From the NCBI GenBank assembly GCA_963804995.1, contig CAWDSK010000006.1:864001-928000 (forward strand): a stretch of DNA of 64,000 nt, in the 5' to 3' direction. This document shows, one piece after another, positions 24,001 through 27,000 of this stretch (its first letter is position 1; each line of letters starts with the position of its first letter). Position numbers: made by a program. The DNA is from an uncultured Acidobacteriota bacterium. Its GTDB lineage: Bacteria; Acidobacteriota; Terriglobia; UBA7540.

Positions 24001-27000
24001 CGCTAACCCATGATGTCTATGAAAAGAAAGGGAGTTATAACTTTTTTTCACCACGGAAGGGGTTGATCCTGACAAGCAGAGAAGTGAGTAAGAATGGTTT
24101 CGCAGCGTCGGGCCTTGATGCAGATCTGGCCGTGGTCAAGACGCCAAACGGCCATCCCCCGACCTCAGGGCACTCGCTCATTCTCATTTGCCGGCCACCC
24201 ACACTCCCCCGCATCGCTTATCGGCGGAAGGAGGCAGCGAGGTGAGTAAAGATAGTTCCGCGACACCGGTTCTTGATGCAGCGATGGCCGCGGTCAAGGC
24301 ACCAAACGACCGACCGATCACCGAGCCCTCGCTGCTCCCCCTGCATCGGCCGCCCACACTCCCCTGCATCGCTTATCGGCGGAAGGAGGCAGCGAGGTGA
24401 GTAAAGATAGTTCCGCGACACCAGTTCTTAATGCAGGGCCTGCGTGCGGTTCGCGGAGCAACTCGACAACCTGCAATCACCGGAGAATCTCGCGGCGCTG
24501 GTGGCTCCCCAGGACGAAAAATCGCTGCTCATGCAAAGAATGGAAGATTCCAACCTGCGCCAATTGTGGCGGCTTACGAACGTGCTATTTAAGGTCCGCA
24601 ACGGAGCGCTGACCGGTTCTGTCAAAAGTTTTATGAAAGGTAATGAAGGGTCGGGAGGTGGGTAGAGCTGGGGGATTTGCCCCCAGACCCCCAGGATTTA
24701 TCGCTTTGGTGCCAAGATGGGTCTGGACTGGGGGAGCGAGTGGGGCTCGCTCCCGACCGATCTCGGCCCCGGGGTCGGCGCTCAGGTCGCATCCCTGCGG
24801 AGCCCTATCCTCCGCCCCGGCCACCGCGAAGTTTACTCCCACCGGGCTCAGGCCGCCAGGGCGAGAGCGAGGATCTTGTTCCACTGGCCTTGCAAGGTGG
24901 TGAGGGAACTCAACTCCGGCAAGGGGATGGGTACGCGGTAGCCCAGGGCCAGATGGGGGCGAAGGAAGTTGTAGTGGGTGACGAACAGGGTGGTGAGGGC
25001 CACGGCGCCGTTGCGCGTGGCAAAGCCGCAAGCCGGGCGGACGTGGTATTTGTAGGTGCGATTGAGACGTTCGATGAGTTGCTTGAAGGGGCGGAATTCC
25101 TTGGAGACCGCGTCGAGGTTTTCCAGGCCGATGACCTGCCGCAAGGTATGGGGAGGTTGGGAAGCGGTGCGGTGAGCGTTGAGGAAGTGTACGCCGGCCT
25201 GATAAGCGGGGTTGCCGTCGGTGATGAAACGCAGGGCCTGATCTTCGGGCAAGGTGCGCGCGGCCTCGCCCAGGGCCACGGTGGCGGCCAAGGCATCGCG
25301 CTCCGGCGCCACGTGATAGGACGTGATGCGATGCCCTTGGGGATCGAGAAAGAAGAACGTGTATGGGTGCTTCCCCGCGACGCGAATATAAGTCTCGTCG
25401 CCGGTGGCGGTGGCGCTGAGCGGGGCTTTGTAGCGGAGGTTGAAGGCGTGGCAGTAGTAAGCGGCGGCCTGGGCATAGTTGAGAACGGACTGGTAGCTGA
25501 GAGGCACGCCGAAGACTTGCCGCAGGACCTGGGCGGTCTTGCGGGCGGAGAGGGCGAAAGAGATGTGGAAGGCCAACACCAGGCCCAAGACATCGGAAGA
25601 ACGATGCAGACGGGTGAGGTCGACGGTGGGCGGATCGGGAGCGGTGGGGGCCAGTTGGGCGGGTTGAAAGTGGTATTCGCGATACTGGTAACGCAGCTTG
25701 AACTGCGTGCGGCGCAGCTTCTGGAGCAACTTCTCGTTCCAGTGCAGGGCTTGCTGCTTCTGGAGATAGTGAGGACAACGCTCGCCAGGACATTTGTAGA
25801 TGGTGCAATCGGCACGCTGCTTCCAGCGGAAGAGGGAGCTGCCGCAGTAGGGGCACCAGTAAGGAGTTTTCGTCGGGCGATGACGACGAGCGATTTGCGA
25901 CAGCCGGCCACAGACTTTGCAGCGCAGTTGGCGGGCGTGACGGCCATCGTTGAGGTAGAGGAAGTCGCGCGGTGCGCCGCAGTGGGCACAACGACAAGTG
26001 GGAGGCAGGGGGTGGGCGCCAGAACGCTGAATCGGAGCCAACGGTCGGCGGTGCTGGCGCTGGTACTGAGCCAGCAACTGCCGCCAGTTCCAGGTGCGAG
26101 GTGCCGGAGGCGGCTGGGTCAAGGGAGCCAGAGGGTCAACGTAGAAGTCGCGATAGTGTGGATGCTGCTGGCGAAAGTCGTCGCGGGGTTGAGGCTCGGG
26201 CTGGCGCCCGGCGAGAATCTCTTGCAGTTGCTCGACCAGTTCCTGCAAATCCTGGCGGGTAAATTTCCTACAGAGCCAAAGCACCAATCGTGGTATCTTG
26301 CCCATGGCGGTGAGTCTCTCGGGAACCTGGCGGGTTCCCTACAAGGTGGATTGGGAAAGAGAGACTTCACCGCCCTTTTTGTTTGCCGTCAAGCCCCACG
26401 ACGCAGTTACGTCCAGGAACTTAAGCGCGGCAACCCGACCGCACCTCACGCCAACGTCCTAGTCAAGCGCACCCGGAGGGGGGAGAAAGCAGAAAATCCA
26501 GTTTCTCCCAGCAATTCAATGGGTTATCGCCTTAGGGGACAAAAATTCTTGACACAACCCGCTGACCCATAGAGATGTTAAAAATGAAGATCGACCCGGG
26601 GATGTGTATGAAAACAAAGGCGAGGATGACAAAATGTCGTGCAATTTACCAGTGTTTTTCCAAGAAAATGCAGAAATTTCACGATAATTCACACCATTGA
26701 ACAGATTTTTGACAGAAATTACGGGTTGCGCGGTAATTCGGGGCAAAGGCAGATGGCTTTTTTTGAAGACAAAAATGAGCATATCGCGCTACTCGCGGGC
26801 AGGGGCATAAATTCGCGCGAATCCAGAGGGTGCAACCCGGGTTGGATTGTGTTGGCGAAATGGCCTTCCAATGGAAAGGCAAATGCCGGAGGCGGACCGG
26901 CCTGTTCCTGCGGTGGCTGCCGCGTCCCTGACGTAGCACAGGGAAAAAATCCGCGCCTGTCATGGGTTGAATTTCGCAGCCTGGCAGGGCCGACCGAGTA

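What a model noticed while it worked through the whole genome (the two positions that open the first line are those of the whole stretch)
24615..26559. IS6-family element with a fixed target inside the operator-promoter selfish elements
Six of seven near-identical copies of a 1,945-bp IS6-like element (485-aa transposase with zinc-ribbon extension) sit 13-14 nt past the motif CTTCATTTTTAACATCT in the AT-rich 3' part of the dispersed operator-promoter elements, all in the same orientation. This is strict site choice in a family known for little target preference.
Evidence so far: Junctions at C3:400070, C5:110761, C6:923074, C6:888615, C9:173782 and C6:1401195; only 23 such motifs exist in 7.55 Mb, 21 of them within 3.6 kb of an operator and 6 occupied; target duplications of 6-10 bp differ between copies; best NCBIfam match IS6, below its cut-off.
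(Added by a program. Inside this text positions count along the whole contig: contig position 864,001 is position 1 of the stretch shown here. "Call 12" and the like, gene names such as g00115 and contig names such as C1 are that model's own, and its searches are not shown. The text may have been shortened before it was handed on; [...] marks where a part breaks off. The agent that wrote the report below was given it as the finding of a first reader that could run no searches.)

Follow-up and report, generated by a model that had tools for sequence, protein, structure and literature searches.

The report
Transposon family targeting ribosome-binding sites
This jumping gene belongs to a family that lands a fixed distance in front of the ribosome-binding site and start codon of host genes, and the branch found here has shifted its aim to a look-alike sequence inside a non-coding repeat, a habit I could not find described for this kind of enzyme.

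Summary
Six of seven copies of a 1,945-bp DDE insertion sequence sit exactly 13 nt from one motif, in one orientation, with 8-bp target duplications. It does not rest on one genome: 9 of 9 copies in a congeneric genome do the same.

The repeat is not the family's usual target. At 58 distinct non-repeat junctions of relatives, the left end lies 12 nt upstream of a Shine-Dalgarno core, with ATG at 22-25 nt in 53. Four held-out junctions and nine distant Bacillota-type ones agree. The repeat site has the same layout (GAGATGT at 12, ATGAA at 24). This element therefore belongs to a clade retargeted from host ribosome-binding sites to a genus-specific mimic.

The most likely mechanism is direct two-part DNA readout by the transposase. 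ATGAA also lies inside every right end examined (43 of 43) and no left end (0 of 56), which could set the orientation. That step is inferred.

It resembles the long IS6-like clade VIII/i, not IS26-type IS6. A sequence look-up found no earlier scan note on this family; the scan has noted RBS-targeting IS110 and IS607 elements in other genomes.

The parts
24615..26559 (-). Insertion sequence, 1,945 bp
   Evidence: 7 copies in G000 with sharp ends
24848..26305 (-). Transposase, 485 aa: N-terminal helices, two Cys4 zinc sites (C106/109/129/132, C151/154/172/177), HTH, RNase H-like DDE core D303/D363/E412, K419
   Evidence: ORF; Pfam and NCBIfam; conservation in 37 near-full-length homologues; AF2 model pLDDT 94.5; fold hits
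26542..26559 (-). Left terminal inverted repeat; faces the target motif and carries an outward TTGACA
24615..24632 (+). Right terminal inverted repeat
24633..24647 (+). Two subterminal ATGAA boxes found only at the right end; candidate sites for the transposase module that also reads the target's ATGAA
   Evidence: ATGAA at 16-20 nt in 43 of 43 distinct right ends and 0 of 56 left ends; 10 of 10 Bacillota-type right ends. Function inferred
24607..24614 (+). 8-bp target duplication, right copy
26560..26567 (+). 8-bp target duplication, left copy
26572..26578 (+). Target box 1, GAGATGT, 12 nt from the left end; the position held by the Shine-Dalgarno core in relatives
26584..26589 (+). Target box 2, ATGAAG, 24 nt from the left end; the position held by the host start codon in relatives
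26568..26750 (+). Host repeat, conserved arm beyond the left end; no conserved reading frame past about 15 codons
24400..24606 (+). Host repeat, arm on the right-end side
   Evidence: matches to empty copies
23268..23283 (.).
   Evidence: 66 copies at up to one mismatch, most beside a TTGACA-type box
26306..26374 (-). Hairpin that hides the transposase ribosome-binding site in transcripts begun upstream
   Evidence: -38.2 kcal/mol, z -6.35; conserved in 12 aligned left ends
26478..26490 (+). Conserved G-rich box about 70 nt inside the left end (C-rich on the transposase strand); role unexplained
   Evidence: TTTCTCCCC in 53 of 59 distinct left ends
25880..26572 (+). Candidate antisense reading frame (230 codons, start uncertain) running in the host-gene direction to the left end
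   Evidence: Stops depleted in this frame across relatives; amino acids not conserved in the left end; no Atlas hit

Best explanation
The element is a DDE insertion sequence whose family targets translation-initiation sites. SHOWN by comparison: it inserts with an 8-bp duplication so that its left end lies 12 nt upstream of a purine box and 22-25 nt upstream of ATG(A), with the transposase reading away from the host gene. In most relatives these boxes are a gene's Shine-Dalgarno sequence and start codon, which stay intact. In one clade, including this element, box 1 is RRGATGT instead of RGGAG, and the sites used lie in a genus-specific non-coding repeat. INFERRED: the transposase reads both boxes directly in DNA through its N-terminal zinc-containing region. 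A module that binds ATGAA inside the right end is free in the subunit at the left end and grips the target's ATGAA, which fixes the orientation. A few substitutions (residues 84-98, 155-159, 199-200) moved box-1 preference and retargeted the clade to a harmless, multicopy site. I put the targeting pattern at about 0.9 and this mechanism at about 0.6.
For: G000 6 of 7 and G003 9 of 9 at 13 nt from the motif. The offset stays 13 in a repeat variant that is one base shorter, so it is measured from the motif. Non-repeat junctions: C, T, C, C at -17 to -14 in 53, 51, 56 and 55 of 58; ATG at 22-25 in 53 of 58, against 12% for intergenic RGGAG sites in G000. The base after ATG is A in 43 of 53 against 36%, and ATGAA occurs in 29 of 53 against 116 of 727; survival of intergenic insertions does not predict this. 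Held-out G470: AGGAG at 12 in 4 of 4. Bacillota-type loci: G-rich box in 9 of 9 readable junctions, ATG at 23-24 in 8. G000 has a normal anti-SD and 2,411 RGGAG+ATG sites but uses none. The seventh copy sits inside another transposase gene with box 1 only. The duplication and the right flank carry no sequence information. Right-end ATGAA in 43 of 43, left-end 0 of 56. Repeat-type transposases form a 7-row clade, SH-aLRT 99, with clade-specific residues in the N-terminal half. Of 31 intergenic RRGATGT+ATGA sites in G000, 20 are in the repeat.
Against: No binding or transposition experiment exists. The 5-8-nt variable gap between the boxes is the ribosome's spacing and is awkward for one protein on duplex DNA. 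Five of 58 sites lack ATG at 22-25, and one held-out site has GTG. L019 carries an RBS-type transposase between repeat-type ends yet sits in the repeat; it has a frameshifted patch and may have been moved in trans. L059 and L061 fit neither class cleanly. The RRGATGT box was derived from the same sites it explains. The null comes from G000 with a crude gene caller (75% coding), not from the RBS-type hosts. The tree is the quick search without bootstrap. No genome examined holds both types. Only 14 of 49 distinct two-ended loci keep a matching duplication.
Confidence: 0.6

Rival explanations
1. Host-machinery tethering: the transposase docks on RNA polymerase or on the initiating ribosome coupled to it, and inserts at a fixed distance from the initiation site.
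For: The insertion point is 22-25 nt from ATG in two phyla, and the box spacing is that of real RBSs. The repeat target lies downstream of a promoter-like box on the same strand. Mutator-like elements that insert 15-17 bp upstream of sigma-A promoters are a precedent for oriented, offset insertion (PMC3942029, passages).
Against: The register follows the purine box, not the ATG. The repeat-type clade ignores 2,411 ordinary RBS-like sites in a host with a normal anti-SD. The C1 copy lies inside a gene with no ATG. The ATGA bias exceeds that of genes with such RBSs. The repeat has no conserved ORF.
Confidence: 0.2
2. Short purine motif plus selection: the enzyme reads only box 1, and everything else reflects which insertions survive.
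For: A few sites have box 1 without ATG (L051, L061, L094, C1). Insertions in genes are purged.
Against: Only about 12% of intergenic RGGAG sites have ATG at that distance, against 53 of 58 observed. Only 20 of 660 intergenic RRGATGT sites are in the repeat, against 6 of 6 intergenic copies. Separating a gene from its promoter is not an obviously favoured outcome.
Confidence: 0.08
3. RNA-guided targeting: an element-encoded RNA, for example the C-rich left-end box, pairs with the purine strand of the target.
For: A near-invariant anti-SD-like box lies about 70 nt inside the left end (53 of 59).
Against: The box is unchanged in the repeat-type clade. GAGATGT occurs in 0 of 10 repeat-type ends, and ends match their own targets no better than other elements' targets (mean longest match 7.2 against 7.0). 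No Rfam family reaches its cut-off.
Confidence: 0.07
4. Hitch-hiking: one or two insertions into the repeat were spread by duplication or conversion of the repeat.
For: C3:400070 and C6:925018 share both flanks, and four G000 copies have hybrid flanks.
Against: G003 has six different 8-bp duplications, intact on both sides in 8 of 9 copies, made by three sequence variants. Four further repeat-type junctions come from metagenomes, with transposases 83-92% identical. This cannot explain the RBS-type sites.
Confidence: 0.05

Closest known systems
Long IS6-like elements, clade VIII of Harmer and Hall 2019 / clade i of Varani et al. 2021 (ISTet2, ISHco2, ISHahy6); PMC6807381 (passages and section 13 read), PMC7986276 (passages read)
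   Same: More than 1.7 kb, transposase of about 450-485 aa with a zinc finger and a further N-terminal extension, 8-bp duplication, and outer TIR bases often not complementary (seen in RBS-type relatives).
   Different: Neither paper, in the parts read, reports a target preference; Harmer and Hall found no experimental data for these elements. I could not compare sequences with the three named elements directly.
IS6/IS26 family in the narrow sense (IS26, IS257)
   Same: DDE core related to the IS240-type profile, TIR start GGTTCTGT, 8-bp duplication.
   Different: More than twice the length, below the NCBIfam cut-off, lacks the E-DH--K signature, has asymmetric ends and strict oriented targeting. 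Cointegrate formation untested.
p-MULT3/4 Mutator-like elements (TnGBS, ISLre2, ISKra4); PMC3942029 (passages read)
   Same: Works alike: a DDE element inserting in one orientation at a fixed distance upstream of a gene-expression signal, with orientation attributed to unequal inverted repeats.
   Different: Their target is the sigma-A -35 box, so they leave promoter and gene joined. Here the target is the RBS and start codon, and the element lands between promoter and gene. Different transposase family.
IS900 and other IS110-family elements that target translation-initiation signals (title of Doran et al. 1997 in a reference list and passages of PMC8141618; bridge-RNA mechanism recalled)
   Same: Target at translation starts; an antisense reading frame (hed) resembles the antisense frame seen here.
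   Different: IS110 elements use a DEDD recombinase and, as recalled, an RNA guide, and insert at or within the RBS-start region. This element has a DDE enzyme, TIRs and an 8-bp duplication, and inserts 12 nt upstream.
IS elements that target REP/BIME repeats (IS1397, IS621, ISPa11; recalled, not read)
   Same: A multicopy intergenic repeat used as a safe landing site.
   Different: The repeat here is not a REP hairpin, and the site is explained by an RBS-like layout inherited from the family's ancestral target.

Membership tests
IS6/IS26 (narrow) | Length 789-880 bp, transposase 213-254 aa | tested here: not met
   1,945 bp and 485 aa; ranges from PMC7986276
IS6/IS26 (narrow) | NCBIfam IS6 model above its cut-off | tested here: not met
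   69 bits against 125
IS6/IS26 (narrow) | 14-bp TIR consensus GGTTCTGTTGCAAA at both ends | tested here: inconclusive
   The right end matches the first 8 bases and then differs; left ends of most relatives start CG; consensus
IS6/IS26 (narrow) | DDE triad followed by K/R, with the E-DH--K signature | tested here: not met
   D303, D363, E412 and K419 are present, but the sequence is ERLNRTYK and the D-E spacing is 49 residues; signature
IS6/IS26 (narrow) | 8-bp target duplication | tested here: met
IS6/IS26 (narrow) | Transposition by cointegrate formation | not testable with these tools
   Hybrid flanks fit either recombination between copies, replicative events or chimeric assembly
Long IS6-like clade VIII / clade i | More than 1,700 bp; about 450-aa transposase with zinc finger plus extra N-terminal extension | tested here: met
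   Two Cys4 sites conserved in 36-37 of 37 homologues, and about 100 aa before them; definition
Long IS6-like clade VIII / clade i | 8-bp duplication; outermost TIR bases often not complementary | tested here: met
   Duplication met. Outer bases are complementary in this element and not in most RBS-type relatives
Long IS6-like clade VIII / clade i | Groups with ISTet2, ISHco2 and ISHahy6 in a transposase tree | not testable with these tools
Long IS6-like clade VIII / clade i | Predicted N-terminal signal peptide | not tested
   Mentioned in PMC6807381; no predictor run
p-MULT3/4 (ISLre2, TnGBS, ISKra4) | Insertion 15-17 bp upstream of a sigma-A -35 box | tested here: not met
   The junction motif is RGGAG plus ATG, not TTGACA
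p-MULT3/4 (ISLre2, TnGBS, ISKra4) | Mutator-like transposase | tested here: inconclusive
   The top structural hit is ISCth4 (Z 14.2, rmsd 3.1, 202 aligned, 12% identity), core only; sequence E 0.21
IS110 / IS900 | DEDD RuvC-like recombinase, no TIR-plus-8-bp-duplication architecture, guide RNA matching the target | tested here: not met
   DDE/rve profiles, TIRs and 8-bp duplication, no target-matching end sequence; family features recalled

The most novel reading that the evidence does not exclude
A cross-phylum family of DDE transposases reads the two-part translation-initiation signal (Shine-Dalgarno box, 5-8-nt flexible gap, ATGA) directly in DNA with the module that binds its own right end, inserts between promoter and gene in one orientation, keeps the gene expressed through an antisense ribosome runway, and can be retargeted by a handful of N-terminal substitutions, as happened naturally in this clade.
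Probability: 0.35. Interest if true: 0.92.

Novelty: new variant of a known kind. Interest (0 to 1): 0.8.

Why it matters
DDE insertion sequences rarely show oriented, offset targeting of a gene-expression signal; the case I found in print is promoter targeting by Mutator-like elements. Here a poorly studied long IS6-like group aims at translation starts in Acidobacteriota and Bacillota, which gives it a defining trait of its own. The natural switch between two targets among transposases 82-93% identical makes the question of how a DDE enzyme reads its target testable by swapping a few residues. Because the element lands between promoter and RBS, each insertion may change a gene's expression without breaking it. 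A small transposase that inserts just upstream of genes could also be a useful tool in laboratory strains.

Tried and rejected
Guide RNA: no covariation between ends and targets; no Rfam match above cut-off in window 22700-27200.

Hybrid or outward promoter: the outward TTGACA is spaced 17 nt from the purine box, which is not a -10 box. No conserved outward sigma-70 promoter in 59 left ends.

Whole-gene antisense ORF (24677-26572, 631 aa): open in only 5 of 42 relatives, so rejected as a conserved gene. Only the 5' part is constrained, and its start is uncertain because several His columns are CAT-biased.

Circle intermediate: the right-end/8-bp/left-end junction in L038 joins two variants only 91% alike, so it is better read as a second insertion at the same target.

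Repeat as a small gene: the frame is not conserved past about 15 codons.

Fold of residues 1-230: no match (best Z 3.1; no Foldseek hit at E <= 0.001; Atlas hits under 0.9).

Phage records: no match.

Sequencing runs: no RNA holder listed; the four runs laid were contigs of relatives and gave nothing decisive.

Left ends not resolved in L125, L136, L137 and L133; L128 is partial and was not examined.

Literature: searches found no report of RBS targeting by this group. Subscription journals, ISfinder and TnPedia were not searched, and no supplements were read; ISfinder records or the supplements of PMC6807381 could mention target sites.
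Full report
OBSERVATION. The element is real. G000 holds seven copies. Six are 1,945 bp and differ by 0-1 base; the copy at C6:1397597-1401182 carries a 1,641-bp insert in its left end. 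The window copy spans 24615-26559, with a 485-aa ORF at 26305-24848 on the minus strand and an 8-bp duplication at 24607-24614 and 26560-26567. The motif CTTCATTTTTAACATCT occurs 21 times exactly (24 at two mismatches). Six are occupied, each with the left end 13 nt from the motif and in the same orientation. The duplication is exact and 8 bp in 3 of 7 copies; the other four have non-matching flanks, and two of them (C3:400070, C6:925018) share both flanks and may be one event. In those two the repeat is a one-base-shorter variant and the offset is still 13, so the distance is measured from the motif.

IT DOES NOT REST ON ONE GENOME. A search of 60 relatives found 9 near-full-length copies in G003 (86-93% aa) and fragments in G023 and G026. 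All 9 G003 copies, of three sequence variants, lie 13 nt from the same motif; 8 of 9 keep an 8-bp duplication, of six different sequences. G003 has 26 exact motifs. The G023 remnant also begins beside the motif. The motif is found in 24 of 29 genomes of the genus and 0 of 32 others searched.

THE FAMILY'S USUAL TARGET IS THE RIBOSOME-BINDING SITE. I examined 108 loci from G003, genome contigs and metagenomes. Of these, 83 had a readable left junction, giving 69 distinct junctions after identical ones were collapsed: 11 in the repeat and 58 elsewhere. At the 58, positions -17 to -14 from the left end are C, T, C, C in 53, 51, 56 and 55 cases; the duplication and the right flank carry no information. 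Read outward, this is RGGAG at position 12 in 45 of 58 and ATG at 22-25 in 53 of 58 (13, 16, 15 and 9 cases). The downstream frames look like genes: many start like signal peptides, and Pfam names 13 of the 42 submitted. In G000, 6.7% of all RGGAG sites and about 12% of intergenic ones have ATG at that distance. This null uses a crude gene caller and a different host, but the gap is large. The base after ATG is A in 43 of 53 against 36%, and ATGAA occurs in 29 of 53 against 116 of 727. As a held-out test, G470 gave four new junctions: AGGAG at 12 in all four, ATG at 23 in three and GTG at 21 in one. Distant relatives on Geobacillus, Clostridium, Pediococcus and Levilactobacillus plasmids (32-42% aa) and two unlabelled viral contigs of the same type agree. 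Of 14 such loci fetched, 9 had a readable left junction; all 9 show a G-rich box around positions 11-16, 8 have ATG at 23-24, and 8 have an 8-bp duplication.

THE REPEAT SITE IS AN RBS MIMIC. Read outward, the repeat gives GAGATGT at position 12 and ATGAAG at 24, the same layout. The seventh copy interrupts another transposase gene and has GGGATGT at 12 with no ATG. G000 has a normal anti-Shine-Dalgarno tail and 2,411 RGGAG+ATG sites, none used. Of 31 intergenic sites matching RRGATGT with ATGA at the right distance, 20 are in the repeat. The two boxes plus loss of gene-breaking insertions are therefore enough to explain the pattern, with the caveat that the box was derived from these sites. 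In a quick tree of 53 transposases (SH-aLRT only, no bootstrap), five repeat-type enzymes, L048 (in a related repeat) and L041 (no left flank) form one branch with support 99 among RBS-type branches. All distant relatives with a readable junction are RBS-type, so RBS targeting is most simply ancestral. L019 is an exception: an RBS-type enzyme with a frameshifted patch between repeat-type ends, sitting in the repeat. The three RBS-type host genomes checked lack the motif, and I found no genome with both types.

THE HOST REPEAT. It is non-coding; its frame is not conserved past about 15 codons. Eighteen of the 21 motifs lie within 3.6 kb of the palindrome GGGCTACCGGTAGCCC (66 copies at up to one mismatch; about 6% expected by chance). 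Most palindromes have a TTGACA-type box beside them, and where checked by eye it reads toward the motif on the strand that carries the boxes. An operator function and selfish spread were not tested.

ANATOMY. The transposase has N-terminal helices, two Cys4 sites conserved in 36-37 of 37 near-full-length homologues, and D303, D363 and E412. The model is confident (pLDDT 94.5). The core matches ISCth4 best (Z 14.2, rmsd 3.1, 202 aligned), and residues 1-230 have no structural match. Residues that separate the two target classes lie mainly at 84-98, 155-159 and 199-200. The ends are unequal: ATGAA lies 16-20 nt inside 43 of 43 distinct right ends, often with a second ATGA about 11 nt further in, and in 0 of 56 left ends; the same holds in 10 of 10 Bacillota-type right ends. 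A hairpin hides the transposase RBS (z -6.35). In L038 two variants 91% alike lie head to tail with an 8-bp spacer, as expected if an intact target is used twice.

MECHANISM. Most likely (0.6) the transposase reads both boxes in DNA. The module that binds ATGAA in the right end would be free in the other subunit and take the target's ATGAA, placing the left end toward the gene. This is inferred from the end asymmetry, the ATGA bias, the element-specific switch and the gene-internal seventh copy. Against it are the variable 5-8-nt gap and the exceptions above. Tethering to RNA polymerase or the ribosome (0.2), a short motif plus selection (0.08), an RNA guide (0.07; no covariation) and hitch-hiking (0.05) are the rivals.

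CONSEQUENCE FOR THE HOST GENE. The gene keeps its RBS but is about 2 kb from its promoter, and I found no conserved outward promoter. In the acidobacterial elements the antisense frame in register with the transposase is depleted of stops. In the left end there are 3 stops against 25 and 26 in the other frames (19 representatives). In codons 1-189, stops occur at 4 of 95 Leu/Ser columns against 29 of 114 later (p 2e-5, kin not independent), while other A-ending codons are not depleted. Its amino acids are not conserved in the left end, and Bacillota ends lack the pattern. It may be a ribosome runway that limits polarity; this is unproven.

COMPARISON. The element fails the narrow IS6/IS26 definition on size, profile score and catalytic signature. 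It fits the description of the long clade VIII/i (ISTet2, ISHco2, ISHahy6), which Harmer and Hall proposed to separate and for which they found no experimental data (PMC6807381, passages and section 13; PMC7986276, passages). I could not compare it with those three sequences. It works like the promoter-targeting Mutator-like elements (PMC3942029, passages) but with another signal. IS900 targets translation starts with a different enzyme (reference title and passages in PMC8141618). Nine literature searches found no report of RBS targeting for this group; subscription journals, ISfinder and supplements were not seen. Earlier scan notes describe RBS-targeting IS110 and IS607 elements in other genomes (unchecked), and a sequence look-up found none on this family.

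VERDICT. A confirmed and broader finding than first reported: a new targeting trait in a known kind of element, with a natural retargeting event that makes the mechanism directly testable. New variant of a known kind; interest 0.8.

Noticed in passing
window 22810-22870 (+): The 3' part of a tRNA gene (anticodon loop with GAA; Rfam tRNA E 0.067, missed by ARAGORN), near a large serine recombinase at 18544-20637; looks like the attachment-site remnant of an integrated island.
   Followed up: no
window 18544-21923 (-): A serine recombinase (Resolvase, Recombinase and zinc-ribbon domains) with an HTH gene and a DUF5372 gene beside it; probably a mobile module.
   Followed up: no
G000 C6:1399439-1401079: A 1,641-bp element with a 468-aa transposase-like ORF (IS1182-like by recollection), three copies in G000, has inserted into the left end of one copy with a CTAG-type duplication.
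   Followed up: partly
window 23268-23340 and 65 other G000 sites: The palindrome GGGCTACCGGTAGCCC with a flanking TTGTCCGA-like box on one side and a promoter-like TTGACA box on the other; no cognate regulator identified.
   Followed up: partly
window 23760-24050: Degenerate units of about 30 bp (ATG-N-TT-ATGAAAA type), related to the target arm of the repeat and common in this genome.
   Followed up: no
window 23400-23545: Tandem copies of a unit of about 38 bp inside the host repeat.
   Followed up: no
window 24724-24815: A conserved G+C-rich stretch in the element's right non-coding end draws several-fold more metagenome contig depth than the transposase, so it is probably shared with other mobile elements.
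   Followed up: no
L027, L039, L054, L094, L118 left ends: Left ends lengthened to about 400-420 nt by inserted hairpin-like segments; in most the antisense frame stays open.
   Followed up: partly
L048 and L059 left junctions: Both sit in relatives of the ATGAAAAC-type repeat rather than at a gene start, and both have GG left ends.
   Followed up: partly
L049, L053 and G000 C1:127796: Several targets are genes of other mobile elements (a serine recombinase and transposases).
   Followed up: no
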